Source: Lytechinus pictus
Lineage: Eukaryota
Direction of reading: 5' to 3'
Assembly: GCF_037042905.1 (NCBI RefSeq)
Contig: NC_087250.1
Coordinates: 10,976,001 to 11,040,000 of the forward strand
DNA length: 64,000 nt
Numbering within the stretch: the stretch's first letter is position 1; each line of letters starts with the position of its first letter. This document shows, piece by piece, positions 19,609-64,000 of this stretch. The notes beneath the pieces are model-generated. The model made no database searches, was not told where the DNA came from, and was given only the letters and a program-made list of their open reading frames with translations. The position numbers and the translations under genes are program-made.

Positions 19609-19670
19609 ATAAATGTATGTGGTCTATACTTACGATCTGCCAAATAAGATAACGAAAAAGAGAAAGAATA
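19609..19670. repeat. Last partial satellite monomer (array boundary)
   Basis: ATAAATGTATGTGGTCTATACTTACGATCTGCCAAATAAGATAACGAAAAAGAGAAAGAATA matches the monomer. No satellite was seen downstream. Confidence 0.9.
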
Positions 19671-19905
19671 TGTTTATTCGATTATCGCATAAATTCTTTT
19701 GGAGAGAATACAAGTTTTAGTATGTAAACAAATACTGACTATAAACCAGTTCACTGCCCTTCAGAAGGAGGTCAAGTTCACGCGTACTTCTGTTGGGGGA
19801 AGTCGGTCAAAACGCGCACCCGAAAGGATTGTATCTTCTTCTTCTTCTGTATCCTTCCTCCGCTGTATCGGAGATCCACAGTTTAATACTGCATTAATAT
19901 TAGCG

Positions 19906-36790: not shown

Positions 36791-39453
36791 CCATTTCCTG
36801 AACGTTTATTGATTTTTTTTTTTTGTGTGTAAAAGTATTTAAATTTGCAAGCTATACAGAATACAGCTATACGATTAAGAGGTGAAGTACAAAGTTGGAA
36901 GGGAAACTAGGCCAAAGAGGCTTTCGTATTACAAACTTTACGTCGGTAAATTATGTTTACCTTAGACACTGGGAATCTAATTTGCAATAATTTGACACAC
37001 ACATATTGCAGATAAATTCAGATATTTGATAGGAAGAAGAAATCAACGGCAATATGCACTACTGTATAAGTCAAACGTGAAGGTTAAAAAAATAAGTATA
37101 GAAAAGGTTTAGAAAAATTCAAAGGAAGAAATGAAGTTGGATGAAAAAAAAGAAGCCATTAAAATTAAGTTGACAAAATTAAATATTGTGAGTAGAACTG
37201 AAAAATTGAAAGAAATAATTAAGCCTTCCCCTACCGCCGAACGGTTTTGAAGGGGATCACCATGCATAAAATCATGGTACTTTATACGTTTTGTAGCTAT
37301 TTGGAGGAAAAAGAGTGTGGAGGCTTCAGCCCAGACCCCCTTCGGTTCTGTGTCTGCTGGATGGTAATCAAGAACACTTGGTCACTTAGTACTCTAGATC
37401 ACAGGGGAAATTGATAAGAGAATAAAGACGGATCCCAGGTAAAAAGATAATATAGGTTTTCATGTCCAATTTCATGTCAGAGTCACTTAAATGTGTTAAT
37501 TTGCATTTTAATTCACGCGATATTTTTTCCCCGGAGACATCGGTCATTCAAAGTTTAGAATGGGATTCATTAAAATACGCTATAATTCCTTTATAAACAT
37601 TCAACTCAATTCATGGTCAAGACTACCTCAAATTTGATAATTTTTATACTAAATTGTTAAGTGCTTTTGATTTCGTTTGAAGGTAAAGATGTTTGTAATG
37701 GTCTTACAAAGTAACGAAAATACTTTTTGTTCTAAATTTCGGGCAATGAAATTCAAGAATTGTGCATTTAATCAACAATGACCGATATGACTGCTTGAGC
37801 ATCCAATTTAATTTTTAAAAGTTCAAATTAATGATATTTTATTCGTTTGTTTTGCACGACATCTGTATTATGTGTGAATATATAAGTTTCTAGCATGTTA
37901 ATGTTTAAACATAATGTATAATAAGAGTAAAATTTTTGTGCACTTTGGCTAAATTAGATATAGGCCTATGTTTAGCTCAAATATGAATTTCAACGATGCC
38001 CTTGTCCATTTTCCCACAAAAACGCTTGCATTTTATGAGTTTATTATTTTTTGTCACAGTATAGCGTTTCAATGTAAATATTTAAATGCAATCATTTTTG
38101 GACCCAGGTATGATTTATATTGCATCTTTTGCAAAGGGTTTTGCATTTCGTTTACAAAGAAGTTAAGGACAATTCCATATTTTTCCTTTTCACCCGACAA
38201 TGCTGACTGTGTGGGCTCAGTGTGATGAACACAAATCTTACCTGCGCCTGAACATTTACTTTTAGAAAGTCAGTGTCTTAACGGTATATTCTTCAAAATA
38301 AAACAACTCGTTCTATTAAAAAAAATCAAATCTAAATCTAATTGAACTTTGTCACTACTGAAACCTGAAACGAAAAACTATCAAAATAAATTGTGAAAGC
38401 GTAACTTTGGAAAATGTACCCCCAATGGACTAGGCACACCGATACAAGGACAAAATGATATTCAGATCAGTGACTAGAGATCGGGCGTTCAATAGTTTGC
38501 CTAAAACGCCGATATCGTGAACATAGAGGGCGCTAATGCAAAAACATATTATCGGAGAGCCAACCGAAGCATGTCAGAAGAAAAGATAAAAGCGAACGCT
38601 TCCGTTTTCGCTGCAAAAGGGCACGCTGGCGTCTTGAATGGCAAGAGCACTGACCCGTAGGAAAGAAAAATGGACAATGGCACGCTCAGCGGGTTCGCCG
38701 TAGAATATAAAGGTAAAGACGCACGCACACTTTTGACAACACGCCTAATGAGACGAAATGGTTTTTGGACTTTGTTGATAGTTTACTAACTAATGGTAGA
38801 CGAAATGATATCAGACCATGCGATAGTGGGAAAAAGGCAGTAGACGAAATGGCAATAAACCGATAAATATCCATACAAAGAGTAATCCTGATTTCCAGAT
38901 CACTTAATTCTCTTTCTCGTGTCTCAAAATACTTAGTAAAAGCATATTTTATATCTTATCTGTAACTTGAGTCCTGAAGAAAATACCGCTGCGACATTAT
39001 GCGTTGCGACATGTGACGTTATGCGTTGACAACTTGCTGCGACATTATGCGTTGCGACATGTGACGTTATGCGTTAGAAAAACTACGACATTATGCGTTG
39101 ACTGCGACATTACGCGTTAGTGCGACATTATGCGTTGTTGCGACATTATCGGTTGTAACAAGGCCTACTAATTGGGTACAAACGTCGTTTAAACGGAAGA
39201 AAGTAGTGGTGTTGCCACTGCCGCATTGGTGAAAAAATAAATAAATAGATATCAAGCCCGGGCCTAACGTTAGCCTGGCCTGGACCTGGTCTTACTCAGG
39301 ACTACAACGTAGTGCCTTGCTTGGCTAATAACACTGATTCATTGTAATTTCCAAAGCCGGCTGTTTAGATTTTGGGGGTTAGTCTAGACTCTACGTCAGA
39401 AATAGGCTAGATGAGATCTGGATATAGATCTAATGATGCCTAAATTATATTAA

Positions 39454-42400
39454 CCCTTTGCGTGCGACGGGCTTCCACAGAAGCCCAGCGAGTCGTTCAC
39501 TTAGCTACGACGGGCTTCTACAGAAGCCGAGAAATGTTTGGTTTAATTCAATTAGGTTTTTCAGCTTTTTCGTAATTGTTATGTACTAAAACCTCTGCCA
39601 CTATTTCCTTCATAAACCTATTTCGATAACAGATTGAAAAAAATATACAGCTACGTGGGGAAAAATCCCGAAAATAGGAAATCATTTCAACTTTACCCGA
39701 TTTTTTCGTTGGAGTCGGACGGGGAGGACAAATTTTGTGACGAGCACGTACGCGCGCGCATAAGGCCTGATCACGTGATTTGTTCTGATCACGTGATTTG
39801 ATCCATATTGTTGTTCTGATAGATATACGCTAACATCTTTTCTGCAAGATCGACACGTAATAAGCTACGCGTTTATTCACCATTTTCGTCTTATTTGTTT
39901 AATCAAGAAGATATCACTCTAGATAGAATGATATCTCCTTGGTTTCATCGATCGATTGCATTTTCAGAAAAGCAAAAAGCTTGTTATGTCTTAGTACATT
40001 GAGCTTATCTCGGTGCACTTTTGAACCTTTTCCCTCCCCATCATCCCTCTTCTTCTCATTATTTTTGTCTACTATTCTGAAAAAAGGAGAAAAGAAAGCA
40101 GTTTAGCACACCATTCATCTTCTGCTCTTTTCAAAAGGGGAACGTCCATGTAGTTCATGATATTGGCACTACCCGAACAAAAGAATGTCTGGGCGGCCAC
40201 TCAAACAAATTCCTTCCGAAAAGAGCAGGATACAGATGGTCAACGCCCCGAACAAAAGGAAGATTACTGTTTATCGGCAGGATGACCCATTGAACGCTTT
40301 TCGTATTTAGCAATACAAAAAGCTTTTATGAATCCTTTTTTTTCGACCAACATACCGTATCTAAAAAAAAAATGTCTCATTACCGACAACACAGGTGCTT
40401 ATGACATCCGTCAGTGATTCATATTGCAAAAAGGCGCTTCCCCTGGGTGATGATGCATATAAGGAAGAACGAATAATTATTTAGGGAAATTATCGAAAAA
40501 AATATGTTCAAATGTCAGGGAGGACGAGAGAGAATGAGAGACAGAGATAAATGGGGAACAGACAAGTGCGCTTTTGCTAAAATTCCATGAATATCTACTT
40601 AAACGAATTACAATATGACTTATTTTTGGTTAGATTACTTTAAAAAATATCCCACAATGTTTGTTTGTTGCAACTCGGTCCTCAGACCCTTGCCAAACTG
40701 ATGACTTTTTATCATTGTTCTTGTTTGAGCCCCCCCCCCCCCCCCGATGGAAATGTTCTGACCTACACTCTAATGTTGCTTGTTTGTCTCCTCCGATTTT
40801 CTGTTTTTAATTGCGAGTAACGCGGTAGAAGAGATAAGAATAAATACCGTCCTGGGGCCCTTTTTTCCCCCCGTTACGACAAAAAAAAAAAAAAAAAATC
40901 GCATTTTGGGCGCTTACCATGGTTAGCATCTAAACCAAAATGTTTGGAAAAAGATGTTATACAGGGACAGCAATGTTTTTTATGGTGCAGGTGTTGAGCT
41001 GTGAGACGGGGATGAAGCGGCTAAAAAATACAATTTGTTAATTCATGTCATTTTACAGAATGAATTTATAATAGGATAGGTTTTAGAAGCTCTTCATCTT
41101 ATTTCCTTTTCTCACCCAGATGAAAGCTTTTGCATTGAAAAGTTGACGGAAACATAATTGCTTCAAATGATAAAACCAATAATGAACTAAAAGTTTCCTC
41201 GCGCGAAATGGAGGAAATAGAATGATACAGGATGATAAATTACGCTATAAGGCACCCCCTATAATGAAAACACGTTTGTATGGCGTGTCACCCGATAGAA
41301 TCCTCTCAATCCTACAAACTTTTTTTCATGTGTAACCTACACCCCCCCCCCCAAAAAAAATGTTGACACCGACCCAAATTTTATTGATTTTCCTACTTTT
41401 TTTGCCAATTTCTTTCTCATTTTTTTAACTGGCGAATAGCGTGGTAGAAAAAATTCATAGAGGAAAAAAATTGTTTCCGTGACTGAATGTGGGAGGGAGT
41501 GGACCGGCCGAAAAAAAAAATCAGAAATTTATATAGACTTCGGATTTTTTGTACATGTTTGCTGAAAGGGGTGAGGACGGTGAGGACTGAAACTTCCTAC
41601 CAACTCCGCCGCCTCTGTACTATTAGATTGAACGATTAAAACGATAGAGACAATAATGAATTTTAACTATTGTGAATGTTTTTTAATGATTTATTATCGG
41701 TTGTGAAATGAAGGAGACAATAGAATAAAACGAAAGAACAAATAAAAAAAAACACTTATGATTGCGGATGCTATAATTTATTCAAGAAAAATACTTCCTT
41801 TTACTTTCAGTAATTGCTTTGCTCTTTTTGAGGGAATAGTAAGATAAAGAAACGTAGAAAGTGACAAGAAGAGAGTTGGGAGGTACGATTTCAGACTTAC
41901 AATTTTAGTCACTTTTATTCGTTTAACTCTTTGAAATAATTTCAGGATATTACAAATCGAATACCGATGCGCAAACTTCAGGAACAAAATTATTTTATTA
42001 CTATAATATCTGCGTGGGAAATCGAATTAAATGAAACATATAATTTATGAAAAAATCTAAAAAAGAAAATTACTTTTAGTGAAAGATTGAGGCCTCTGTC
42101 TTGCCATAACCCTAAGCCCCAGGTTCACAAAAAAAATTGTTTAGTCGTGCATTTTTATACGATGATGATGATGATCATCATCATATTGTCTTTTGCGGAA
42201 GATATCTACCCACGTTATCAATATAGAAAATGGAAGATGATATAGAGTTTATTGTGAAATGACAGTTACAATAGTAATTTTAGAAGGTTTTTCGGGACAT
42301 TATTTGAGAAACGGGGAAAAAAACCCAAAATTTTCGACCTGATGACCACGATGCAATAGGACGAGAGGCCCACAAATGCAACCACATCCGATCAATACAA

Positions 42401-44231
42401 GTTGGCAAAAACGAGACATTCTCTCGGAACCGTTACCGATGAAAAGAGAGAGGGGGGGGGGAGATGTTAGATGTAATGTAAAATGACAGGTACTGAGAAG
42501 AAAAAATCAGAAAGAAAGGATTGAGGGGGGTGGGGGCGGGTATATACCTCGTAATCCAAATCGGGAAGAAAGAAGACGATACATATATAATTCAAATGAG
42601 AAGAACTCAGAGAAAAAATGTGTAGAAAGGAGGGGATATAGAAAGACGACAGATATAAGGGAATGAAAGCGATAGATAATACATTCAGTTACAGGTTAGA
42701 AACCAGAGAAAGGGAAAACGAGGAAAACCCTAATTGGTACCGTTTTATAAATACATTATACATGCACATGTTATATTGAAAAATGCGCAATAATTTAAAC
42801 AAATTTACCATCCGCCAGTCAAATAGAATGATATAGCTTTCAAGTGTTATTGAAAATTTGTAAACAAATTTTATATAAAACGGGCCCCTGGAAAACTTTT
42901 GAACCCCCCCCCCCCCCCCCCGCTTTCTCTCGTTCTCTCATCCGATATTGCTCTTATTTTTGTCTTCAAAGGAAACAAACAGAAAATAAAGGAATTAAGA
43001 ACACCGTTTATCCTCTGCTCTTTTAAAAATGAACAAAAGAAAGTCATGGCGGACGCTCAAACAAATTCCTTATAAAAAAAGAGCAGGGGACTAATAGCCA
43101 ACGCCCTGAATAAAAGGAAGATTAGTGTATTTCGTCAGGATTACCTAGTAAATGCTTCTCGTATTTAGCGATACAAAAAGCTCTTAGGAATACTGCTTTT
43201 CATATTACGACAGTAACAATAAAAAAAGTAAATGTTTACTTATTTAAAACATGCAGGCGCTTAACCCTAAATCTCCCGGGGTATTTTGATACACATAAAA
43301 CACTTAGATGCTAAAATTTCAATAGATAAAAATAATTTACTTTCTCTCATTGTGACGAACAGTAATCGGTAGCATGGTTATTTTGGAGGGAAAAGGGAGA
43401 TAGAAAAATGAAACGTAGAACGAGACGAGGAGAGCGTTGGGAGGTATGATTTCAGATTTGAGTCACATTTACCCCCTTCGCTCTTTGAAATTGCAACAGG
43501 AAAACAAATCGAACACTGGTATGCAATCTTCAGCAACAAAATTATTTTTTTATTACAAACTGTAATTTATGAAAAGAAGAAACCAAAGGCGATTTTTAGG
43601 GAAACATTGATGCCACCGTCTTGAAGCCCAGAAGCCAAAAATCACAAAATAGTTTCGGACTTTCGTTGCGCAGCATCATCATCGTACTTGCAAGGGAATA
43701 TATTCACCCTTTTTTATTCATTCTGGAAAATAAAGGTATTTGGTATGCTGTGATTTCACCCAAAATGGATTATCGTCGTAATTATACACTTTGCAAATGA
43801 CCTGAATACAAGGGGGTAAAGAGACCATTCATGAGTAGCGTTACAATAGGCAATGAAGAAAGCACTAGAGCAGACAACAAAGCGGTATCGATCGAACCCG
43901 ACTTGTCCGCGCGTGCTGATTGCCCTTACGCATTTTTGTACACAGTGCCTATTGACTTGGGAAAAAGCGAAGATTTGACAAAATAACACGACTTTTTCCT
44001 CGTAAATTTCTTAACTATTCAGTTGATTTGAGAAGCGAGACCTTTAATTCTAGAAAGAAAAATGTCTGATCTTTCATCTTTACATTTACTAAAAATCCTG
44101 AAAATACTTCAGTTTGGCGCAATTAGCAATAGATTAGGAAAACACCGCCACAGATCCAAAAACCAGCAATGTACAAAAACGGCTCCGCCGCAGGGAGAGG
44201 TATCCGGTTTCGCGGGCCCGCACGCAAAGGG
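39454..44231. mobile_element. Non-autonomous piggyBac-like element, copy 2 (4778 bp), inverted relative to copy 1, with an internal ~1 kb deletion
   Basis: TTAA at 39450-53 and 44232-35. Same 13-bp TIR. Reverse-complement match to 10847-16591, e.g. mirrored spurious ORFs 11089/43756, 13059/42844 and 14065/41778. Confidence 0.93.
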
Positions 44232-44702
44232 TTAAGTTTCCATAATTTAGGCCAGATTTGATACGCCTAGGGTTATAATATTTATTTAGGACCAGGATTA
44301 GGCCTAATTCTAAGACATCGTTTTTGCAATTGGGAAAAGCTCGAAATTTTTCAAAATCGAATTGAGTGGGAAAAGTCAATTTCTTGTCAGATCCAGTCTA
44401 CTGTCAGTTCTTTGTGCAGCCTACGGCTACATCTTTAATATCGACTTCACAATGGAAGTTAGGCTAGGCCTAGATCTATTTCTGAGTAGATGTAGTCATA
44501 GACTAGACTTGTCTGTTTTAGGCCCTGGTTCAGCTGGCAGATAAACCATAAAGGCCGTCTATAGTATGTGCAATAAATCAGCTTGAATTATAGATCTTGA
44601 CCTCTTTGATTTAATCTGGATGTTTGGTCGAGCGAGATGGTCTCGAATTTATCCCTGTCCGGCTAGTTTGAAATACGGTTGAATGGAATTTTCTCAGTCT
44701 TT

Positions 44703-44845: not shown

Positions 44846-47800
44846 GCCATAGAGTTGGTAGTATTGATAATAATATTGTAACAATAATACGGCAGTGTGA
44901 TAATGATAATGGAATATAAAAATAAATAGCCCAAGATCTACACTTTGAAGCATCAAACAAACTGTTCGGTTCATTCGCCTTGAAAGGAGGTTGGTATTTG
45001 GAATTAGGTTTGTATGGAATGGTTGTCGATGTTTGGGAGAGCTTTTGAGTTTTAAATTTCGAGAAAACACAGTAAAAGTCAATTTACCACGCACACGCCC
45101 GGATGTAATAATGCGAGCTAGCTTGGAACTCCCACCTCAATCTGGATAGTATCATTACCTATACTTTGCGATATTGTTGCTTTCTTTTGGAAGGGGCAAG
45201 TTCAAGGGGTTCGGCGAGCAGTGATTGGGTTTTTACATAGCGCTTTGTCAATCTTAAACACAATGAAACCTTACAATTCATGGTTAAAGAATAATAGTAA
45301 ATGAGCCTTCATTGCCTGTGAGTAGTTGGAACTGAGATGATATCGACTATATCATGAATGGCAACAATTGTAATAATAATTTTGTTAGTAATGATGATAG
45401 CGGTAAATAAAAATAATGGTGAACTAAATTTCCGGAAGGGGTCAAGTGGAAATTAGTGGATAGAGATAGGCGGGCATGGGCTGTATTTGGATGTGGTTGA
45501 GCTCTGTTAAGCATGTTAAGCTTCGGTCATAATTTCCATGTGTTGCGTTTTTCAATACAATATATGCAAATGAAGTAAGCCATTTAGTCCAAGTGTACAT
45601 GTAGATGAACGGGTAAAGCTGGAAATAAAGTCGTAAATGTTTTATGTGATAAAATGGGGTGGTATTTACCCAACTGTAGTAGTTTGGATAATTGGGTTTC
45701 ATGGGAGGATGGCAGTGTATTTTTATTCAGATGATGTTACGCAGATACCCATCCATGGTTTATATCAAAAGAAAGCTACTGATTCCTCACTCAGCACGTT
45801 TCATAAATATACATGTGGCTGCCTTTTGGAATTGATCAATGAGGGGAATATGGGTGATTAGTGGCTGGATGGATGCAACCAAAAAAGATAAGAATAATAA
45901 TAATGGAAAAAAGGGAACATAAATAAATAAAACAAAATGCGTCTGCAATTTGGCTTAATTATTTCTGTAGTTTTAGAGGTTGTAAAACAGTGTATGAATA
46001 TTGTTGATAATAATACTCTTCTGCTACAACTATTAGTTAAAATAAATTGATTAACAAGCCAAAATAAATGAAGAAAAAAAAATAAATAAAGGCTGAAAAA
46101 AAAAACAATATTCATAAATTTGATAACTGGAAAACATAGATAAAAATTCAGGAGCTACGTCCATGAGAAGAGCAATTAGATCTTAATTGCCCTTAAATAG
46201 GCATGCTTCTCCTGGTGAAAGTTCTGGATGTTAATGGAATGTGTATAGCTTACATGTACTCACTGGACAAGACTTAAATGAATAAGAGAGCTCTATGAGT
46301 CCCAGGATTGGCGAGTGCGACTCCTTTAGTTGATTTGGGAACAGCAAAGGAAAAACACTGGACATGCAGGCATGGCAGGGAAGTGTTGTTTAATTACACA
46401 ACCCATGATATGGCACTCATCATACTATTATAATGGTTTCTCATATTTATATTGGTTCATTATCCAGTCGACCAAACGGTACCTTCGGCTCATACCGAAG
46501 AGAAAACACAAGACAGAACATTAACCTTTATTGAACGAATGAATAACACTGACAAATAAATTCCATAATTGAATCAATAGCAAGGAGTGATTGATGGTTA
46601 GCAACTGGCATTAAGCCGAACCGACATCAGGAAGTTCCAGATTTGAATTTAGTTTTAATTGTTATACAATGCAATCACATCTGTCATATTGGCATGGACA
46701 GACACTCGCACCTGATTGGACATGGGTAATGGCAAAAATAAACTTGGAGGTTAGCTAATAAACATATAACCCCCTGCATTCTTTCTGCCCAATTGAAAGA
46801 TATAGGCCTACACAAACAGTGCCTATCCAATGTTTCTTTTCAAGTACGAGTGTTGCTCTGGTCAGTACTTAATTATAGCATAGTTCGATGTGTGCAACTG
46901 AGTAAATCAACGAATTGGCAAAAACGATGCTTATTATTCTGGGTGTTGTTTTGGGGTGTTTGTTTTGGGGGTGTTTTTAAGTACTTGGCAATTTCATTAT
47001 CATTTATAGAAGTATGCAGGGAAGGAATGACCGAGACGGAAAGGCCAAGATTATCGGATATTTGGTAGGGGGATCCTCGTCCCAGGAAACTGGGACACTG
47101 GGTGGAGCCACCATCCTCCCAGCTGGTGACATGACTCGTGACCCGGCTCTCCCTATGTGGTTATTTCTTAGCCTTACTCTTTCCTTCCTCTGCAGGCATT
47201 GAAATTTATTGACATTACTGCGATACACATGTTTGTGAAGCGTTGGTGTAATAATAATTGGTTGATATTACTGTGATACAAAATTATGTGAAATATTGGG
47301 GTAACAATTCCCGATCGGAAATTAAAGTTGAGAAAATGGCAATATCTGGTATATCGTGTCGTATTTCTTCTCACAATATGTTTATTCGATTATCGAATAA
47401 ATTATATTAGGAGAGAATACATAGTTTTATAATGTAAACAAATACTGACTGTGTTACGATACTGCAACAAATAACAATTGAATTTAGTTTTAAATTGGAT
47501 TTTCTTTCCTTTTATTACAGGAAATATATGGATCACTAAACAAAACAAATAAATATTTATCTTACATCTCATTAATTAAATAAATAAGTGAGACAACCAA
47601 AGTCTGCTGCGATGATTATACTAGCCTGGTACCGCCCTACTGGCTCTAGCATGTATTTGTCTGATCTTGTTGAAAATGTGCTATCCAAGTTGGATGATGA
47701 ATCTAATTATATTATCCTAATAGGAGACTTAAATTGTGATCTATTAGCTTTCCCTCCCAGTTGCTATTCAAAGAGACTAAATGAACTGTCGAACTGTCAA

Positions 47801-49597
47801 ATAATTCAGACACCAACACGAGTTGATCAAAAGTCTCAAACTCTCATTGATGTTATTTTTATTTCCAATACTTCTAAAAAAGAAGAGAGTGGCGTTATAC
47901 ACACCGGGATTAGTGACCATTCACTTGTTTTTGCTTTATTTGGTAAAAGGCGGTTTAATAAATGTCATCATGCGTACAAGGTGTTCAGGGATTATAAAAG
48001 ATTAAATGGCGACGCATTTCGTGAAGAAGTAGGTAATACTAATTATAACGATGTGTACAGTTCTTCAACGGTTGATGAGTCTGCCAATTCTTTTATAAAT
48101 TCTTTTTCGTTATCATGTAATAAATTTGCCCCATTAAGAAAAAAGAAGATAAAAAGGGACAGACTTCCATGATTGATGCAGATATTCTGGCAATGATTCG
48201 TAAAAGAGACAGCATGAAAATAAAAGCAGTTAAAGATAATCAGGATGAAGATTGGAAAGCATATAAGAAAATGAGGAATTCTGTAACAACAAAACTGAAG
48301 TACAAGAAAAAGATTTACTTTCAAACAAAAATCGAGACTTCGAAAGGCAATGTAACAGAAACATGGAAAAATCTGAATATGCTATTGAATAAAAACAATA
48401 AATCAAATGAAATACCGTTCATAAAATGTAATGATATGGATATTCATGATCCTATTCTGATTGCCGAAAAATTGAAAGAACATTTTGTTAATATAGGACC
48501 CCAGTTAGCAAAGTCAATTATAGAGCCCACAGTTAAATCCGATCTTACGTATTCTTTCCATTATTTGCCTCAAAATGCACAGTTTCATTTCACACTGGTA
48601 AATGAAAGTGAGGTGTATAGGTATATCTTGAATTTACCAAATGATAAAGCTATGGGGTGCGATTTGTTACCCGCCAAACTGATCAAATTAGTTGCCGAAT
48701 GTATCACTCGGCCCTTAACACATATAAGAAACTCGTCTTTTATATTCGGTGAAGTTCCTGAAATGTGGAAAAATGCCATCGTGACTGCATTACACAAATG
48801 AGGCTCTAATGAACTTAATAATTTTAGACCGATTTCTATTTTACCGATCTTTTAAAAAAACTTAGTAAGAATAGTTTTTAACCAATTGTACAATTACTTT
48901 AATTCTCATCATCTCTTGAATGCTTCCCAATCAGGCTTTAGGTCCCTTCATTCAACCATGACAACACTGCTTTCAATCACCGATGATTGGTTTTATGAAT
49001 TTGATAATATCTTTTAGCGAAAGTATTTCGTTAACAAGCGGTTATCCAGAGTCTAGACATCAAGGGCGTAGTTGGAAATCTCCCCGCCTGGCGATCTTGG
49101 CGCGGACAGGTGGTCCAATTTAACGACTTTGTTGACGAGAAATTATCGGCGGGGAGATTTCGCTCCTACCTCCTCACTTTTCTTCGTGGTGTTCAGAGTA
49201 GCGGGTCGTATTATTTTCTATCGCTTGTTTGATTACTTCCAATTTCTACAAATTTTCTTGTTTTGAAGTTACAATTATTACTTTTTTCTTGTTTTGAAGT
49301 TACAGTTTCTTTGGACGCTTTGCAGGAATTAGAGTCTCTTTACTCGTCGTGTGTTTATACTCCTTGCGATATTACGACCTGCCTGGTGTTAATAATACAT
49401 TCTAACTTTTGACAATTATTTTGAATTCGTTGAATTTACTTCAGTACACCATCCCCCTATTTTGGCAATTATTGAAGTAGTTGAATTTACCACAGTTTAT
49501 CTGCCTCCTGTCTGCCTGTTTTCTGTGCTCGGATTCTAATTTACGCTAACTTTTAGCGGCCTCTGTCTTTCCGCGTCATCTTTTGGAGTAGTTGAAA

Positions 49598-50654
49598 ATG
49601 CCGAAAGTCAAACAGGGAAGGAAAAATGCTATCAAGTCTGCAACGCCTCGTCGCACGCGGAAGGCTGGGATTGGGAGTGCATCGTCCACCTCGGTCGTCG
49701 AAGAGGACGTCGCTGGAGCTGGAGCCGGCACGGGGCATAGAAACGGTGAGTCTGTTACTGTAGGGGCTCCCTGGCCCATAGTCACCCCTCCCGGCGCTGC
49801 GCATAGTTCCGAGGCAACCCATGAAATTCAGGCGTTTTCACATCCCCCTGATACTCCGGTTACCCTCCCCATTTACGATGGTTCAGGCATTACCCCCTCC
49901 GACACAGCCGGCTATGCTGAGCTGCGTGTGCGATGAGCTGGGTAGTGAGGTTCCTGTTGGGATTAAAGAAAAGATTTGGAGTGGTGAATACTTTGATCTC
50001 GGTTTGCTGCTAAAAAGGGACGGCGCGCAGGTAGATTCCGCTCAATCATTCAGCCTCTGTGCTACGGGGGCTGCAGTAGTTTTGCGGCCACAGAGCAAGC
50101 CGCCTGTGCTGTCTAATATTGAACAGTGGACATCAGCTTTTCTGATATTCGCGTCGATATATCTAGAGCGTCATCCAACCCGGGCTCGGGAATTATTGAA
50201 ATACATGGACATCGTACGTTCCATTGTTAGGTATGGGGGGTTCAATTGGCGGTCTTATGATGCGCAATTTCGCCTCCGTCAGGCGCGTCAGCCTTTTAGA
50301 TCATGTGCGTCAATCGACTCCGAACTATGGCTGACAATCGCAACAGCGAGCCACGGTTTTCAATATCCCGCCTCGTCATCCCTCGCCTCTAGGAGTCAGC
50401 CTTTTCGTCCATACGGGCGGGGAGCAAGCCGCACGCCCCCGTCTCGGCAGTATGGTTCGAACCGCGTCGGCAGCCCCCGACCTCCACTGCTCTGTTTCGC
50501 ATTCAATGACACCGGGTCATGCAGCCGAGTTAACTGCCGTTTTCTGCACAGATGCAGAAACTGTTCCGCGACCTCCCATGGCGCCCACGCCTGCGTCAAA
50601 CCCACCACCGCTGCCGCCAGTAGCAAACGGGTGCCCGGCCCAAACACCAATTAA
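49598..50654 (+). CDS. Gag-like ORF1 with a Cys/His-rich C-terminus, apparently split by one frameshift near 49800-49930
   Basis: MPKVKQ start in one frame. KEKIWSGEYFDL, IEQWTSAF, WRSYDAQFR and CFAFN..C..C..H.C..C..H..C lie in a second frame, typical of DIRS/Ngaro ORF1. Confidence 0.8.
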
Positions 50655-52218
50655 TTTGAAACGCATGCTTCCTTTTCTGAATAAGTACGCCAGACGCGAT
50701 GATGCCGCGCAACTTATTTCTGGGTTCCGATTTGGGTTCTCTCTTGGTTTTACCGGGATCCGTCACCCTGTTTCTTCACGAAATCTTAAATCGGCAGGGG
50801 AGCTGAAGGATATTTTAAAGGATAAGATTAAAAAAGAAATTGGCCTGGGTAGAATTGCTGGTCCTTTCCAATATCCTCCCTTTCCGAATTTTCGCTGCTC
50901 CCCTATAGGGCTTGTTCCCAAGCGTTCCCCGGGGGAATTTCGCCTTATTCAACATCTCTCAGCTCCTCGAGGTCATTCGGTCAATGAGTTTATTGACCCA
51001 GATCTATGCTCCGTATCATACACTTCGTTCGATGAAGCTGTTAATCTTGTTTCAAACCTCGGTCGAGGTGCATTTATGGGCAAGGCAGATATCAAATCCG
51101 CATTTCGCCTACTGCCGGTCCACCCTTCTGATTTTGAACTCCTCGGTTTCTGCGTAGACGGTGAATATTTTTATGACAAATGTTTGCCTATGGGTTGCGC
51201 TATATCATGTGCGCACTTTGAACGGTTTAGCACTTTTCTCGAGTCTTGTTGTCGCAGACTAGCTAATACTGACCGCATTCTGCATTATCTAGACGATTTC
51301 TTCTTCGCCGGCGCTTCGCGCGAGGAGTGTGAATCGTATATGAGGCATTTGTTGGCTATGTGCGAGGCTTTTGGAGTCCCTATTGCAAGCGAGAAAACGG
51401 AAGGGCCCGTTTCTTCTATCAATTTTTTGGGTTTAGAGATTGATGCGATAGCTCTGAAGGTTCGCGTTCCAAGTCAGAAAATCGAATCCCTGCAGACAGT
51501 GTTGTATCACTGCGAAACGCAACAGAAGTTGACATTGAGACAAGTGCAATCGCTTATCGGCAGCCTTAATTTTGTGTGTAAAGCTGTTGCTCAAGGTAGG
51601 GCATTTCTTAGGCGTCTCATCGATTTGACACGAGGTGTCCGCCGTCCGGATCACCGAATTCGCATAACAAAAGGGGCAAGAGCTGATTTACAGGCGTGGG
51701 CTTTGTTTTTATCCGAGTTTAATGGCACCGTCATGTTTTCTCATCCAAACTGGCGCTCAAATACCGAATTTCAGTTTTTCACCGATGCAGCGGCTAGCAT
51801 TGGTTTTGGCATTTTCTTTCAGAACAACTGGGCTCAGGGACGCTGGCCTGCAGCGATTTTGGATGCTAGTTTTTCCATTGCCTTCTTAGAGCTATTTCCG
51901 ATTGTGGTGGGTATCCGGCTATGGGGGGCGCGCTTAGCCAACAACCGGGTTCTTTTCTGGTCGGATAACCAAACCGTTGTGCATGTTGTTAATTCGCAAA
52001 CATCTAAGTGCAAACACATCATGAAGCTAGTTAGGATGTTGGTAGGGCTTTGCTTGAAATACAACATTCTTTTTAGGGCGCGTTACGTGCCTGGCTCTTC
52101 CAACGAAATAGCTGACTCCCTCTCTCGTTTTCAGATGGAAAGGTTTCGGCAGCTGGCACCGGGCGCCGATCAGCGGGGATGCGTCATACCCATCCATCTG
52201 TGGCGGACCTTTTTGTAG
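50452..52218 (+). CDS. Reverse transcriptase plus RNase H (open ORF)
   Basis: Motifs SPIGLVPK, FRLIQHLS, DIKSAFR, LPMG, YLDDF, FLG, TDAA, ELFPI, SDN and NEIADSLSR. Confidence 0.95.
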   Translation: MVRTASAAPDLHCSVSHSMTPGHAAELTAVFCTDAETVPRPPMAPTPASNPPPLPPVANGCPAQTPINLKRMLPFLNKYARRDDAAQLISGFRFGFSLGFTGIRHPVSSRNLKSAGELKDILKDKIKKEIGLGRIAGPFQYPPFPNFRCSPIGLVPKRSPGEFRLIQHLSAPRGHSVNEFIDPDLCSVSYTSFDEAVNLVSNLGRGAFMGKADIKSAFRLLPVHPSDFELLGFCVDGEYFYDKCLPMGCAISCAHFERFSTFLESCCRRLANTDRILHYLDDFFFAGASREECESYMRHLLAMCEAFGVPIASEKTEGPVSSINFLGLEIDAIALKVRVPSQKIESLQTVLYHCETQQKLTLRQVQSLIGSLNFVCKAVAQGRAFLRRLIDLTRGVRRPDHRIRITKGARADLQAWALFLSEFNGTVMFSHPNWRSNTEFQFFTDAAASIGFGIFFQNNWAQGRWPAAILDASFSIAFLELFPIVVGIRLWGARLANNRVLFWSDNQTVVHVVNSQTSKCKHIMKLVRMLVGLCLKYNILFRARYVPGSSNEIADSLSRFQMERFRQLAPGADQRGCVIPIHLWRTFL

Positions 52219-53155
52219 AGAGGAATCGCCTCATGCTGGCTTCTCGAGCGCAGAACACTAATTCTACCTATAGGAAGGCTTGGGACGCATTCGAGCAATT
52301 TCGGTTGCGATATCACTACGATATAAATATCGAACCAGACGTTGAACAGGTGGCTCAGTTTATTTCTTTTCTTTCATGGCATGGTTATGCGGGGTCAACC
52401 ATAAGTACTTACATATCGGGGTTAGCTTTTGGGATGCAGGCTTCGGGTTGGCCTGACACGACCGGTTGTTTCATCATTCGTCGTTTGGTGGATGGATGTC
52501 GGCGCAAATTTGCCCAGCATGATACTCGGTGCCCTATAACTTTCCCCATTCTGAAATCGTTGATTCATTCCATCTCTCATGTTTGTCCAAATTCTTACAA
52601 TCAGGCACTTTTTCGAGCCGCTTTTCTAATGGCGTTTTTTGGCTTTCTCCGGGTGGGCGAGTTTACAGCTCAATCTAAACGGGGCCCCTTTTCTTTGTTG
52701 GAAAACGATGTTTGCATACGGGGGGAGGGTCCTAGCAGAAAACTGGAAGTTATAATCCGGAGGTCGAAGGCGGATCAAACAGGGCGAGGGTGTTGCATTA
52801 TTATTCCCACATATAATTCATCTCCAATGTGTCCTGTTCAGGCTGTAGATAATTACTTGTCCATTCGTTCTAGTAGTCAGGGTGCAGTGAGAGGAATGAA
52901 CTCGCCTTTTTCCGGCACTTTAGCACTCAGCCGTTAACGAGGCATGAATTTGGTAAAATATTAAAACAGGCGATATCTTTCCTCAACTTACCGGTGGAGT
53001 TTTATTCCTCTCACTCGTTTCGTATCGGGGCGGCAACAACTGCTGCAATGGCAGGGATCCCTGACGTTTGTATTCAAAATATGGGGCGCTGGGCTTCCCA
53101 TTCCCATCGGCTTTACATCCGGGCCAATCCTGCCTTGCTTGCCGATAGTATGTGA
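52179..53155 (+). CDS. Tyrosine recombinase with a single frameshift in a T5 run at ~52907-52911
   Basis: FFGFLRVGE, RSKADQ and MCPV lie in the track frame. A shifted frame continues FRHFSTQPLTR...HSFRIGAAT...MGRWAS..LYIR to TGA at 53153-55, completing the R-H-R-W-Y catalytic set. Confidence 0.9.
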
Positions 53156-54798: not shown

Positions 54799-55673
54799 AT
54801 GTTCGTGATTTTCTGAATTTGGATTATTTTTATTCCCACCTATATTGGTTGAGTTATATATACAGTATCGAAAATCATTAGTAACCTCAGGAGGCCTCCA
54901 CTTCTATTTCTTTATGTAAAACAACATATGATACTATTATGACTTTTGTTGATGATTTGATAATATGAATACGGCGATGCTACTCGGTTAATTATTAAAC
55001 CACGAAATACCGCATATAACTGTGTTTGTATCTTTGTTGTGTCTGGACTTGGATAACGGGAATGTTGTATGTGCTGTAATGCTTGATCTGCGCAAAGCGT
55101 TTGATACTGTAAGTCACGAATTGTTAATCGACAAACTATTTCAGTATGGTCTGGATGGAATGTCAATAAACTGGTTCACGAATTATTTAAAAGGGAGAGG
55201 GCAGGTTACAAGAGTCAGTGGCCATATATCTCAAACTCGCCTTATCCTAGGTGGTATTCCCCAAGGGTCAATATTGGGACCCCTACTTTTTATCATATTT
55301 GTTAATGATCTACCGTCCATTTTAAAACATTGTAAAGTTAGCTTGTATGCAGATGATACGATGATTTATTGCTCAGGCAAAAGTCCCACTGAAATATGTT
55401 TTAAGATTAATGAAGATCTAGAAAACATAAGAAAATGGCTGATTAAAAATAAACTACATTTAAACATCGATAAAACCGAGTACATTGTACTAGGTACCAA
55501 ACAAAGGCTCTGTAAAATTAAAAATGCTATATTTCAGATACATATTGATAATACTCCATTGCGTAAGGTAGATGAATGTAAATATTTAGGTGTTATCCTT
55601 GATTCTAATTTAACATGGCAAAACCATATTGATTATGTTCAGAAGAAAGTAAATGGTGGTTTATTCATGTTAA

Positions 55674-56070
55674 AGAGAAATGCCAGTAGTTGCAGTAAAC
55701 ACTGATTTCATGAGAAAGTCTGTAAATCCAGGCTTAACTGTCAGAATATCATCGAGGATCTAGATCTGGTACAGTTACGTAAACTTAACTTTGTGAAATC
55801 TTGAAATCTACGCTGAAAAATGTTCACACTGAAGATCACCAACACAGATAGGCACACGTGGGGGGACAGTGTATTAATATTGCTGGAATAAAGACCCGAC
55901 GGAAGTGACCGAATCCGCGCTTATTTTGCTTATTTCTCAGCAATTACACAATTTCTTCCAGAATCCTTTGGCACATATTTTTTTTTCATACAAACAGACA
56001 CTTGGGTGGTCATTTTATTAGATTCTGTAAAAAGTCATTTTGAGATCGTTACCAAAACTGGAATTTATCT
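55674..56070. mobile_element. TTAA-flanked MITE (Kolobok-like, 397 bp)
   Basis: TTAA at 55670-73 and 56071-74. TIR AGAGAAATGCCAG / CTGGAATTTATCT. Removal restores the LINE frame GGLFMLKSIKNFV...HFNYCDAVWG. Confidence 0.88.
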
Positions 56071-60029: not shown

Positions 60030-60743
60030 TAGGAGTGGGCTATAAATGGGTCAAAAATATTTATTGTCATTTTAATATGGCAACAGTTTTTATCTATTCC
60101 TTGTAATGTATCTTAACATGAAATGACTATATTTTTTGTCTCGGGTCCGAGATAAAGATGTGCCTGGCCAAAATTCAAAATGGCCGCCACCCCCCCCCCC
60201 CCTCAAAAAAAAAATCAGTTTTGGCCACAACTTCTTTATTTGGTGATCTTTTTCTCTGGTTTTGGTGTCTATTTATATGTTGTTGGGTTTTTTTTTTGGG
60301 GGGGGGGGCAGGCAATTTGTTTTTTTCTGAAATTAGTACTTAAAAACCATTATTTGTAGAGTAAAAGGATGATTTTACCTTAATTTACACATTTTAGTCC
60401 CATTTTACAGCCAAAAATTAGTATATTTAAGTAAAATCACCTTGTAACTCTACAAATAATGGTCTAAAAGTACCAATTTTAGGAAAAAACAAATTGTGTG
60501 CCCCCCTAAACACATGAATAGACACCAAAACCAGAGAAAAAGACCACCAAATAAAGAAGTTGTGGCCAAAAGTGTAATTTTGGGGGGTTTTGGCGGGCAT
60601 TTTGGATTTTGGCCCGGCACACTCTTTCTCGGACCCAAAACAAAAAAATATTATCATTTCATGTTAATATAGGGTAAAAGGAATAGAAAAAAAATGTTGG
60701 CGAAGGTAAAACCAAAAAATCACCCATTTATAGCCCACTCCTA
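60030..60743. mobile_element. 714-bp palindromic (foldback) MITE with TA at both ends
   Basis: Perfect 22-bp IR TAGGAGTGGGCTATAAATGGGT / ACCCATTTATAGCCCACTCCTA. The arms stay inverted throughout, e.g. TTTTGGCCACAACTTCTTTATTTGGTG versus CACCAAATAAAGAAGTTGTGGCCAAAA. Confidence 0.9.
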
Positions 60744-60787: not shown

Positions 60788-60990
60788 GGGGTTTTGAAGA
60801 AACTTGCGATCAATTGCAAGTCTATTTTTGTCCCTAAATCAATCATGAGTCTTGCAGTTAATTGCAAATTAGTGAATGATTGCGAATCTGCTCCTTGAAA
60901 CAAACATTTTAATCTGATTTGCTATAGCTAACGTTGATCTATCTGTTGTAAAATTGCAACAGAATATTTGCAATTGGTCGCAACACACCC
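60788..60990. mobile_element. Short degenerate MITE
   Basis: TTGCGATCAATTGCAA (~60804) versus TTGCAATTGGTCGCAA (~60968), inverted. Ends approximate. Confidence 0.5.
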
Positions 60991-62893
60991 TTAGTGTCAC
61001 AACTCCTGTGGAACGGCCGATTCTACCAATGTTTTATCGGTGTTCCAGACTTTGGTAAAATAAATTCATTTTCTCACCCCTGCCTATACAGTATTATGTG
61101 TCTCACCTTTGACTATGCGTACGCGAGAGTCGATTACTCGTGTGCAAATTCGGGAAGGGGGTGGGGGATATATTGTATCTAGGTGACCAGATTTGGACAG
61201 ACAATATACGGGACACTTCGAGATCAGATATATAGAACCAAACATTTTATGGGGCTGCTGTCCATATTCTCAAATGATACATCGAAATACAAATTGAATT
61301 GAAAATGGTCTATTAGTAAATAAATATATGAGCAGTTATAATTATTTAATCACTTTATTCATAATCAATTTACTGTTTAAAATCTTGTTTATTATAACTT
61401 ACAATCAGTCATTTAGAGTGCTCACGTGCAGTAGGGTATGGAGATGAGTGTGTTAGGGTGTGTGTGTGTGTGTAGTGGGTGTTGGAATTCCTATGCATAC
61501 ATGGCCTAGCTTTGGAAGAATCAGAGAAAGAAAAGGATTTGGGCACTACCTTCTTCAGCCATGATGGTATCCTTTTTCTTCAGTTGGTATCACTGAGCTC
61601 ACTTCAAAGCCCTCTGCGGGTATGCTTTTCTTTTTGTCCTCCACTTGTCCTAGGTTGGTTCCTAAGGTTTAAAGGAAACAGATTCTTAATAAGATGAACA
61701 TTAACAAGAAATTTATCAAAAAATAAATTGATGAATTATAGTTTAATTAGCCTTTGGACTTTTATAAAGGAAGTTCGTTGTTGTTGTTTGTTAATGTATG
61801 TCGTTAAAGGGGAGTCCAGCCAAAATAAAAACTTGTTTTAAAAGCAAAAAGAAAAATCATACAAGTTGATAGGTAAAAGTTCGAGCAATATCACACAAAC
61901 AATAAGACAGTTATGAATTTTTAGAAGTTGCATATATTGGCAATCACTATTCCCATGAAGACTTCAAATTGCCGCATATGTCATGTCATAGTGATGTAAG
62001 GCTGGGGCTACTTTTCCATGGTCTCCTATCATAACATTGCTAAAATGTCATGTGGCGTGTGATACATGTACGTCTAAAACTAAACAAAACCCAAGAATCA
62101 GACCGAGTCCAGTGTCTTGATGTGTGCACAATGTGACTGTTACTTCTTTCATATGTTAACAGTTATTTAATAACAATGCATTCATCACGTGCCCGAAGAC
62201 GCCAAATTCAAGTTTCTTGCCTTTCATACACAACTACGCCACGTACGACTGTACGCTTTCTATTACGTAGTGCATTCAGGTATACGTATACGGCGTTTTC
62301 ATTTGAACAAATTCACTCGGCCTACATAACTCACATAATTTCCTAACTTAAGAACCATATTTCAGCATGCCACATGGCTTAAATGATAACATAACTAATA
62401 AACCTAAAGATAAACAAATAATACTCACGTCATTGGGCTCGTATCACCAAATTAAAGAAATTTAACAAAAACTATGGGCAAGCGACACGCTTCCCATGAC
62501 CAGACAAAATAGCAATACGCCCTCAATCGGTAAATTTAAATCTAAAAAAAAAAACGATTTACAAGATGAAACTAAAACAGTTTCACAACAATTTGAGACA
62601 TTCCAAAAATTTCATCCTGTAGGCGACATGTAATACACTACTCAAAAAAAGTTAAGGGCCACTTTTTAAAACGTACATAAAGATTTTATACAAGGTGTTT
62701 TATTTCTGGAAATACCTCAGTACAACTGTCCTAAATGTCCTTAAACACGCTGTAATCTATTTCACGCATGGGTGGTTTCAGTTGTTGCACAATGTCTCTC
62801 GCATCACTGCACATCCTGAAAAGTGGGCCCCGAGGGGTATCAGCTACCGACATGAAGTGGTAAAAACGAATGTCTGAGTGTCTTTCAGGCAGT

Positions 62894-63660
62894 TCAGTAA
62901 CGAGTGTGACCACCTCCTGCAGCAATAACGGCTTCACAGCGCTGTCTCATGGAGCTGATGAGGCGATTGATGTCTCTGACGTCCAGTGCATCCCATGCAG
63001 CCTCCAGAGCCACACCAAGCTGCTGCAGTCCAAGTGGATGGGCTTCGAGCTGCTCGAGACTCCTCCCCATCATGTCCCAGACGTGCTCTATCAGGTTTAA
63101 GTCCGGGGACCTCGCTGGCCACTCCATACGCTCAATCCCCTGGCCCTCAAGGAACTCGGTCACCACCCTAGCTCGGTGGGCACGGGCATTGTCATCCATG
63201 AAAATGATGTTTTGTCCCACATTTTCTGCAAATGGCACCACTATAGGTTCAAGGACCTCATCCCTGTACCTCACTCCTGTCATTGCTCCCCCTGGGACCA
63301 CGTAGAGACGAGTACGGTTGGCGTAGGTGATGCCTCCCCACACCATGACGCTGCCTCCCCCATAACGGTCATGTTCTGCAATACAGGGGTCTGCAAATCT
63401 CTCTCCTGGTCGCCTCCAGACTCTCGAACGTCCATCATTGTGGTCAAGGGAAAATCTGCTCTCATCTGTGAACAGAACTCTACGCCATTGCTGTCTGGTC
63501 CATCTGACATGCTCCCGGGCCCAGTTGAGACGAATTCTTCTGTGAGCAGGGGTGAGTGGGACACACTGAGCTGGCCGTCTGGCATGCATATTGGCTCTGT
63601 GAAGTCGGTTACGGATTGTTTGAGTGGAAACAATCACTCCAGTTGCTGCAGCGAAGTCAT
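62894..63660 (-). pseudogene. Tc1 transposase, C-terminal DDE domain, N-terminally truncated
   Basis: Motifs VLFTDESRF, VMVWGGI, FMDDNARAH, WPARSPDLNLIEHVW and GGHTRY*. The first HTH region is missing. Confidence 0.93.
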
Positions 63661-64000
63661 ATGCCAAGACACCACCTAAGTGAAACAGATGTAGCCAGAG
63701 CCCTAGGGATGCTGGAAGCTGGCCTCAGTCAGCGAAGAGTAGCCAGAATGATGGGCGTGTAACACAGTGTCATTAGCAGAGCAAATCAAAGACACCGAGA
63801 GACAGGGCTATACTCCGAGAGACCCCGCAGTGGCCGACCAGTTTCGACAACCCCTAGAGATGATCGCTACTTGACGAATCTCAACCTCCGCAACCGCTTT
63901 CACAGTGCACGCCGCCTCAACAATGACTTCGCTGCAGCAACTGGAGTGATTGTTTCCACTCAAACAATCCGTAACCGACTTCACAGAGCCAATATGCATG
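63661..64000 (+). pseudogene. Tc1 transposase N-terminal paired-like HTH region with an in-frame stop
   Basis: MPRHHLSETDVARALGMLEAGLSQRRVARMMGV*HSVISR...RSGRP..TTPRDDRYL...VSTQTIRNRLH, with TAA at 63760-62. Confidence 0.9.

What the first reader, a model, noticed from the sequence alone, without database searches (positions are those of the whole stretch)
62636..64000. Palindromic Tc1: head-to-head inverted duplication joined exactly at the start codon
Seen: 63583-63660 is the exact reverse complement of 63923-64000 (78 bp visible, continuing off-window), with a 262-bp spacer. The junction is CAT|ATG. The plus copy begins precisely at the transposase ATG with no 5' UTR or left TIR, and the minus copy carries the DDE domain, AATAAA and the 3' TIR. 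Inference: the element probably has two right ends and ~1 kb arms. It could still be mobilised, and read-through transcription would give long hairpin dsRNA of transposase sequence. Established analogy: Mu killer in maize is an inverted-duplicated element that silences its family.
Basis: partly seen in the sequence, partly recalled or inferred. Interest (0 to 1): 0.7.

Follow-up and report, generated by a model that had tools for sequence, protein, structure and literature searches.

The report
Two-right-ended Tc1 palindrome in urchin intron
A young jumping gene has lost its left end and carries a mirror-image copy of its right part instead, a known by-product of such elements, and this copy appears to lie in a host intron, so it could make long double-stranded RNA, though nothing yet shows that it silences its family.

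Summary
In detail: exact 78-nt inverted arms, 262-nt spacer, CAT|ATG junction, plus copy starting at the transposase ATG. The parent is a young DD34E Tc1 of about 1.73 kb, found intact in 4 of 4 runs laid; none of them showed this junction. The right arm is off-window; an unchecked note on the overlapping window gives 2,312 nt, exactly 1,025+262+1,025. Best reading: a non-autonomous 'right-right' derivative in which the 3' part replaced the 5' part, as described for mariner Rpmar17/Rpmar49 and Goblin. The break at ATG is unremarkable: both breaks fall in the same short motif. The scan noted this kind twice before elsewhere in this genome (about 150 copies claimed, unchecked). New here: a minus-strand host last exon lies 1 kb away, so the palindrome is probably intronic and read through. 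Silencing is untested (about 12%). Side finding: the transposase is 305/337 identical to a sea-spider protein, and DNA over 99% alike occurs in runs lacking the host's repeats, pointing to horizontal transfer. New member of a known kind; interest 0.35.

The parts
61555..61661 (-). Probable last coding exon of a host gene (34 codons and stop, then UTR-like DNA with AATAAA at 61393 and 61359)
   Evidence: Pyrimidine tract and AG, GC 46% against 24% in the next 120 nt; 33 residues 85% identical to the C-terminus of P0149, E 5.5e-10; run X1 covers it
61662..61663 (-). Splice acceptor AG; the intron runs from here towards and over the element
   Evidence: X1 cover ends at 61663: predicted bin depth 4.316, observed 4.31; no X1 joint from here to any place in 60800-63922
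62634..62635 (.). TA target-site dinucleotide (left copy)
   Evidence: Sequence
62636..63660 (-). Left arm, 1,025 nt: the 3' part of the Tc1 inverted, from the second base of codon 88 to the right terminal repeat
   Evidence: Collinear with intact contigs of X12 and X4 (4 other letters in 1,021)
62636..62669 (-). Outer terminal inverted repeat (about 30 nt) of the native right end
   Evidence: The native left end matches 30 letters here (joint 62669-62759 in X12 and X13)
62759..62830 (-). Inner block shared with the native left end (72 nt, 6 differences): the parent has long imperfect inverted ends of about 195 nt
   Evidence: X13 record 20, positions 119-190
62699..62704 (-). AATAAA poly(A) signal of the transposase, in the same sense as the host gene
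62894..63658 (-). Transposase residues 89-342 with D153, D244, E279 (DD34E) and stop; no start codon or paired-type N-terminal HTH in front
   Evidence: residue spacing counted by hand on the translation
63658..63663 (.). Head-to-head junction CAT|ATG; both breaks fall at native CA^ATG
   Evidence: (loose end before 63661)
63661..63922 (+). Spacer (loop), 262 nt: codons 1-87 of the transposase, premature stop at 63760-63762
   Evidence: 2 other letters against all four runs
63923..64000 (+). Visible start of the right arm; predicted to end at 64947 if symmetric
   Evidence: length from note e1-7787750 (unchecked)

Best explanation
A genuine, young, non-autonomous derivative of a DD34E Tc1 in a sea urchin, in which the 444-nt or so left end (terminal repeat, promoter region, 5' UTR) has been replaced by an inverted copy of the last 1,025 nt, giving TA-[right end inverted]-[codons 1-87]-[right end]-TA, 2,312 nt. 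Shown: structure up to 64000, parent structure, youth, break context. Inferred: it arose in repair of an excision or palindrome break, either (a) by gap repair that switched template between the long imperfect ends and closed by end joining at the near-palindromic CAATG/CATTG match (2+1+2 with both middle letters kept, like the one-letter scar described for Goblin), or (b) from a longer head-to-head palindrome trimmed on one side through the shared CAT. It makes no working transposase (no left end, stop at codon 34) but keeps two right ends that the intact family can bind in trans. It lies in the last intron of a minus-strand host gene, so pre-mRNA passes through both arms and can fold into a 1-kb stem; the likeliest fate is splicing out, editing and decay, with at most a small input into small-RNA pools. 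It is a by-product of an actively hopping family, not a selected silencer.
For: Intact parent in 4 of 4 runs laid, with the native order spacer-then-arm (joint 63922+ to 63660-) and native 5' UTR. Window copy differs from them at 6 of 1,283 letters (0.47%). Same 5-mer at both breaks occurs in 0.15% of 341,700 random break pairs, the inverted 2+x+2 match in 0.41%, a shared 3-mer in 1.8% (patterns chosen after seeing the junction). The architecture is published: Rpmar49 and 227 Rpmar17 copies with variable breaks (PMC4678618), seven Drosophila sublineages (PMC4161770), Goblin (PMC3814204). Right-right Mos1 transposes 26-fold better in vitro (PMC4505599). Host exon.
Against: The right arm beyond 78 nt, its terminal repeat and TA were not seen by me. 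No contig bridged the junction in 4 of 4 runs (331 pieces not shown, but bin depth equals the single intact record in X1, X4, X13), and the 24-nt junction pattern had 0 matches in JGI metagenomes. No run held half the words of the locus (0 of 24), so there is no independent DNA of this locus. X1's library type is not on record, and P0149 is an odd automatic model (zinc knuckle plus partial fibrinogen domain plus this tail), so the intron call is an inference. Right-right is not always favoured: for Mboumar-9 it is three times worse than natural. The 78-nt identity cannot tell one template from two (P = 0.48).
Confidence: 0.74

Rival explanations
1. Same structure, but it works as a dominant silencer ('Tc1 killer'): host-driven pre-mRNA gives a 1,025-bp perfect stem over three quarters of the transposase ORF; the element's own poly(A) signal, in host sense on the second-transcribed arm, may end the transcript there and export a stable hairpin that feeds Dicer or piRNA pathways and represses the family in trans.
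For: Intronic position and orientation; AATAAA at 62699-62704 on the host strand; visible 441 nt already fold at -212.9 kcal/mol with the full stem; read-through fold-back RNA silences Tc1 in C. elegans as summarised in PMC3878927; Mu killer precedent.
Against: No small-RNA data could be tested. Unchecked notes claim about 150 such copies beside a still young family. Skibbe et al. found effective Mu killer plants made short antisense RNAs unable to form large hairpins. The poly(A) signal would itself be inside the stem.
Confidence: 0.12
2. Fold-back chimera of amplification, long-read sequencing or assembly: one intact minus-strand copy read, then a switch to the other strand 262 nt further on.
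For: Same shape as amplification palindromes (PMC6218980) and long-read foldbacks (PMC12870357); no independent support for the junction; arms 100% identical where visible.
Against: An artefact has no reason to stop at the terminal repeat, yet the noted length ends there exactly (unchecked note). Foldback reads are about 0.6% of nanopore genomic reads and near zero in HiFi, and are defined within 200 nt of the turn; here the offset is 262. Two other notes report like elements of other sizes (2,064 and 2,537 nt), one said to have moved to five sites (unchecked).
Confidence: 0.07
3. Two separate events side by side: a 5'-truncated minus copy abutting a second, independently mutated copy (local hop into or next to a sibling, then deletion), or a local inversion-duplication whose plus part ends before the terminal repeat; not a mobile unit.
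For: The junction contains TA, the family's target; head-to-head dimers followed by deletion are the origin proposed for Rpmar17/49; 78 identical letters are expected 48% of the time for two separate copies.
Against: The TA at the junction is made of native letters from both sides, with no terminal repeat beside it; the noted total length fits a full symmetric unit. As an origin this merges with the best explanation if the outer ends share one target site.
Confidence: 0.07

Closest known systems
Rpmar17 and Rpmar49, rearranged mariner lineages of Rhodnius prolixus (PMC4678618; passages and second part of section 13 read)
   Same: 5' part replaced by an inverted 3' part with transposase homology, giving very long terminal repeats and two right ends; in Rpmar17, 227 copies with differing breakpoints.
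   Different: mariner rather than DD34E Tc1; Rpmar49 arms 221 nt, Rpmar17 copies mostly 900-950 nt (longest over 1,700); here 1,025-nt arms, 2,312 nt, longer than the 1.73-kb parent, with the whole ORF still present on one strand.
Dromar7, 11, 28, 36 rearranged MITE sublineages of Drosophila (PMC4161770; passages read)
   Same: One end replaced by the other, unusually long terminal repeats, mobilised in trans.
   Different: Described as 3' part replaced by 5' part, short, and amplified from one progenitor; amplification of this junction was not seen.
Goblin MITE from Ozma, Aedes aegypti (PMC3814204; abstract and sections 12, 13 read)
   Same: Right subterminal sequence copied in reverse at the left; microhomology with a one-letter scar; template-switch and end-joining model.
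   Different: 213 nt, keeps a left terminal repeat, 15 copies, DD37E parent, no coding sequence in the arms.
Mu killer of maize (PMC3440606; passages read)
   Same: Inverted duplication of about 1.3 kb of transposase sequence with two copies of one end, between host transcription units.
   Different: Mutator superfamily; duplicates the end next to mudrA; silencing shown genetically; that paper disputes the read-through hairpin model. No silencing shown here.
Tc1/DD34E family (Sleeping Beauty is the best solved-structure match, E 2.8e-28)
   Same: TA target, DD34E, HTH_Tnp_Tc3_2 plus DDE_3, 342-aa single ORF in the parent.
   Different: A distinct subfamily: outside its own clade (87-100%) the best hits are 39-60% identical.

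Membership tests
Tc1 (DD34E) family | DD34E catalytic triad in a DDE_3 domain behind an HTH_Tnp_Tc3_2 domain | tested here: met
   D153, D244, E279 with 34 residues between the last two, counted on the translation
Tc1 (DD34E) family | TA target duplicated on both sides | tested here: inconclusive
   Left TA at 62634-62635; right side is off-window
Tc1 (DD34E) family | Parent with terminal inverted repeats and one intact ORF of about 340 aa | tested here: met
   1,702-nt contig with both ends in X13; 342-aa intact relatives 97-99.6% identical
End-replacement (right-right) Tc1/mariner derivatives, Rpmar17/49 type | 5' part absent and replaced by an inverted copy of the 3' part | tested here: met
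   Native 5' UTR is missing before 63661 and the 3' 1,025 nt stand there inverted
End-replacement (right-right) Tc1/mariner derivatives, Rpmar17/49 type | Second, normal right end completes the unit | tested here: inconclusive
   78 nt seen; length arithmetic agrees with an unchecked note
End-replacement (right-right) Tc1/mariner derivatives, Rpmar17/49 type | Non-autonomous | tested here: met
   No left end; private stop at codon 34; minus arm lacks residues 1-88
Amplified MITE-like sublineage | Several independent insertions with the same junction | tested here: inconclusive
   None in 4 runs laid or JGI metagenomes, one copy in the window; the source genome could not be searched
Killer loci (Mu killer type) | Transcription through both arms from an outside promoter | tested here: inconclusive
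   Host last exon and acceptor 1 kb away on the minus strand; upstream exon not found; no read across the element
Killer loci (Mu killer type) | Arm-derived small RNAs and dominant silencing of the family in trans | not testable with these tools
   Only contigs were served; no small-RNA or genetic data
IR/DR subgroup of Tc1 (definition recalled: long inverted ends with inner and outer direct-repeat binding sites) | Inner direct repeat of the terminal binding site | tested here: not met
   Best direct match reached by 769 of 1,000 shuffles, best inverted 11-nt match by 177 of 1,000; long imperfect ends are present all the same

The most novel reading that the evidence does not exclude
A Tc1 that is spreading between marine animals of different phyla repeatedly throws off right-right palindromes that stay mobile, land in introns and, whichever way round they insert, give host-driven kilobase hairpins ending in a sense poly(A) signal. 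These would be self-made, mobile 'killer' alleles: a route by which an animal host gains small-RNA control of a newly arrived DNA transposon without waiting for an insertion in a piRNA cluster. This intronic copy would be one such allele.
Probability: 0.12. Interest if true: 0.75.

Novelty: new member of a known kind. Interest (0 to 1): 0.35.

Why it matters
As a structure it is ordinary for Tc1/mariner biology: end replacement is in print for mariner and Ozma, and its origin was called elusive (PMC4161770), so a very young copy with a readable junction is a modest data point on mechanism. It would matter more if the intronic 1-kb hairpin makes small RNAs that repress the parent, since that would be a Mu-killer-like locus in an animal and a testable answer to how a host first recognises a newly transferred DNA transposon; five searches of the open library listed no paper on this urchin family or on such an animal locus, but subscription journals are not covered. 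The separate lead, a young intact Tc1 shared between a sea urchin, a sea spider and several unnamed organisms, makes the family a good natural test case.

Tried and rejected
Whole-genome search: no genome held. Junction pattern in JGI metagenomes: 0 matches, uninformative since the family itself is absent there: relatives found were 28-44% identical in 14 metagenome loci, 30-45% in 9 prokaryote loci, none in viral contigs. Scan look-ups by sequence, words and relatives returned nothing. Special meaning of the start-codon break: rejected; with 150 independent copies an exact hit is expected 8-21% of the time even without motif bias (the 150 is unchecked), and the shared CAATG context explains it without selection. 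Junction as an excision footprint or nested insertion at TA: rejected, both letters are native and no terminal repeat is adjacent. Junction as a restriction-ligation product: considered from memory, no enzyme recalled for this context, not tested. Inner direct repeat in the ends: not above shuffles. Alternative reading of the host exon as a first coding exon with a donor near 61548: disfavoured, X1 record 4 runs straight across it. Pfam found nothing in 22 of 26 frames tested near and beyond the element, including the host exon; no other part of P0149 maps to the window (best other E 2.6). The careful tree did not finish; the quick tree is used. Parts of 62060-62584 without X1 cover prove nothing alone. 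No paper supplements were opened.

Full report
Observation. The inverted repeat is exact: 63583-63660 against 63923-64000, 78 of 78 letters, ending outward only at the window edge. The spacer is 262 nt and the junction reads CAT|ATG. The minus arm runs from 63660 to 62636, preceded by TA at 62634-62635. It encodes residues 89-342 of a transposase with DDE_3 (E 7e-19) and HTH_Tnp_Tc3_2; D153, D244 and E279 give DD34E (counted by hand). The plus copy encodes residues 1-113 up to the edge, with a stop at codon 34. No other copy lies in the window. No genome is held, so I could not read the rest of the right arm.

The parent. Of 24 runs listed, 20 hold part of 61000-64000 and none holds half. I laid 4 of them (X1, X12, X4, X13; labels A, B, C, F) on 60800-63922. 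All four have a contig that reads the spacer and then turns from 63922 to 63660 on the other strand, which is the native gene order. Three show the same loose end before 63661 (native 5' UTR, ending ACAGCA before the ATG); X13 has a 1,702-nt contig holding both ends. So the parent is about 1.73 kb, with about 444 nt before the ATG, a 30-nt outer repeat and a 72-nt inner block shared by both ends (6 differences). The window copy differs from all four runs at five listed places (62758, 63017, 63093, 63761, 63884) and at 6 of 1,283 letters against X4 (0.47%). Intact 342-aa proteins exist at 97-99.6% identity; 10 of 10 compared lack the stop and the Pro277Leu change. The family is young and probably still active; this copy is dead as a gene.

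Is the junction real? Not shown independently. No listed piece crosses 63660|63661, and the depth of bin 63635-63739 equals the single intact record in X1, X4 and X13; for X12 my hand sum of listed records gives about 257.5 against 258.8, and 331 pieces were not shown. Contigs drop rare variants and none of the runs is the source animal, so this argues only against a common amplified junction. The 24-nt junction pattern had no match in JGI metagenomes, where the family is absent anyway. The best support is indirect: an unchecked note on the overlapping window gives the feature as 2,312 letters from 62636, and 1,025+262+1,025 is 2,312. A mirror that stops at the terminal repeat is what a transposon unit gives; an amplification or long-read fold-back (PMC6218980, PMC12870357, passages read) has no reason to stop there. 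Two more notes describe palindromic Tc1 copies of 2,064 and 2,537 nt in this genome and claim 145-150 of the kind; I could not check them, nor whether they are this family.

The junction. Both breaks fall at native CA^ATG: one at the start codon, one at codons 87-88. Among 341,700 random break pairs the same 5-mer occurs in 0.15%, the inverted 2+x+2 match in 0.41% and a shared 3-mer in 1.8% (patterns picked after the fact). CAATG is nearly its own reverse complement, so one template switch closed by end joining, keeping both middle letters, explains the join; Goblin shows the same type of microhomology with a one-letter scar (PMC3814204, sections 12-13 read). A perfect head-to-head palindrome trimmed on one side through CAT explains it equally (centre-break trimming is recalled; one search listed three papers, none read). 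The parent's long imperfect ends would favour left-to-right switching (inference). The start codon is thus a sequence context and need not be selected: among 150 copies an exact hit is expected 8-21% of the time.

Host context. On the minus strand a pyrimidine tract and AG at 61663-61662 open a 34-codon frame ending at 61555, GC 46% against 24% upstream, with poly(A) signals at 61393 and 61359. Of 1.84 billion representatives, two matched at E up to 0.001; the best, P0149, matches 33 residues at 85% and ends at the same stop. It is XP_054757258.1, an automatic Lytechinus pictus model, which places the host among sea urchins, in line with echinoderm-labelled runs and scan notes. The model is odd (zinc knuckle plus partial fibrinogen domain) and none of its other parts maps to the window, so the gene's identity is open. 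X1 covers 60981-61445 and 61484 onward at depth 9-24; contig-end arithmetic puts its last covered letter at 61663, predicting a bin depth of 4.316 against 4.31 seen. That is the acceptor. No X1 joint links it to anything up to 63922, although joints with sides of 20 letters are listed. The simplest reading is that X1 is RNA, the exon is spliced, and the upstream exon lies beyond the element. X1's library type is not on record and 67 loose ends were not shown, so this is inference.

How it works. The unit has two right ends and no left end. The intact family can supply transposase in trans; right-right Mos1 moves 26-fold better than natural, right-right Mboumar-9 three-fold worse (PMC4505599, section 25 read), so mobility is plausible and unproven. 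Host transcription would pass the right arm in antisense, the spacer, then the left arm in sense with its AATAAA, and could form a 1,025-bp stem; the visible part folds as predicted. Read-through fold-back RNA silences Tc1 in C. elegans through much shorter repeats (review PMC3878927, passages read). Against a working silencer: no small-RNA evidence, intact-family contigs at depth about 160 in X1 (a poor measure), many such copies claimed beside a young family, and a Mu-killer paper in which silencing tracked short antisense RNAs and not read-through hairpins (PMC3440606, passages read). I put inert or nearly inert by-product at 0.74, silencer 0.12, artefact 0.07, two separate copies 0.07.

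Known kinds. Replacement of the 5' part by the 3' part is described for Rpmar49 and for 227 Rpmar17 copies with variable breaks (PMC4678618); the reverse for seven Drosophila sublineages (PMC4161770, passages). This copy meets the tests I could run for that kind and differs in degree: DD34E, 1-kb arms, longer than its parent. It works like those elements; it is not shown to be a killer locus. Searches listed no paper on this family or on an animal killer of this form; the library lacks most subscription journals, and no supplements were opened.

Side finding, horizontal transfer. The 90% cluster of the transposase holds KAG1665120.1 from Nymphon striatum, a sea spider, on a 506-kb contig: 305 of 337 residues identical to P0122, in one clade with the family (SH-aLRT 100, quick tree of 50 of the fetched proteins), while hits outside the clade are 39-60%. 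Urchin and sea spider are deuterostome and protostome. Runs X4 and X13 hold the element at over 99% yet have zero depth in the bins where X1 has host repeats at 3,000-7,800 (60800-61009, 61745-61954), which speaks against carry-over of the host's DNA. The organisms are coded, so their distance is unknown. Transfer of Tc1/mariner is common in print (listing only), so this too is a new case of a known kind.

Verdict. Real as far as visible, very probably a right-right Tc1 derivative; new member of a known kind; interest 0.35, with a 12% chance of a silencer story worth 0.75.

Noticed in passing
P0121 (KAG1665120.1) and runs X4, X13, X12 on window 62640-63922: The transposase is 305/337 identical to a Nymphon striatum protein, and DNA over 99% alike is in runs of four coded organism labels, two of which lack the host's high-copy repeats: likely recent horizontal transfer among marine animals.
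   Followed up: partly
61555-61663, minus strand: Probable last exon of an unidentified host gene; its only good match is the tail of a chimeric-looking Lytechinus pictus model named angiopoietin-1-like.
   Followed up: partly
16062, 27871, 30480, 34135, 45596, 46251, 62063: TACATGTA occurs 7 times against 1.04 expected (0 of 100 shuffles reach 7). Scan notes read it as an excision scar; an element with CA...TG ends in TA, as this one has on the visible side, could leave it.
   Followed up: partly
60030-60743: Palindromic MITE-like element of about 715 nt with a perfect 22-nt terminal repeat starting TA and 74% arm identity overall.
   Followed up: no
1-10844 and 16592-17866: AT-rich tandem satellite with a period near 380 nt (self-matches at 78-96%).
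   Followed up: no
12817-16595 with 39450-43264, and 10846-11774 with 43297-44232: Large inverted duplicated blocks (91% and 96% identical) about 23-31 kb apart, the left one abutting the satellite; perhaps one long repeat present twice in opposite orientation.
   Followed up: no
49782-52937: Three overlapping frames like gag, reverse transcriptase (RVT_1, E 4e-15) and a tyrosine-recombinase-like frame without Pfam hit; a scan note calls it Ngaro.
   Followed up: no
18420-19673, 19906-22296, 23757-25163, 47588-48801, 54992-55705: LINE-type reverse transcriptase and endonuclease fragments.
   Followed up: no
62657-62667 and 62819-62829: An 11-nt inverted echo of the outer terminal repeat closes the inner block of the end; not above shuffles (177 of 1,000), possibly a second binding site in opposite orientation.
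   Followed up: partly
run X13 on 62633-62689: Terminal contigs at depth 500-850 against 450 inside, some with a 2-letter gap at 62668: short derivatives or end variants of the same family in organism F.
   Followed up: no
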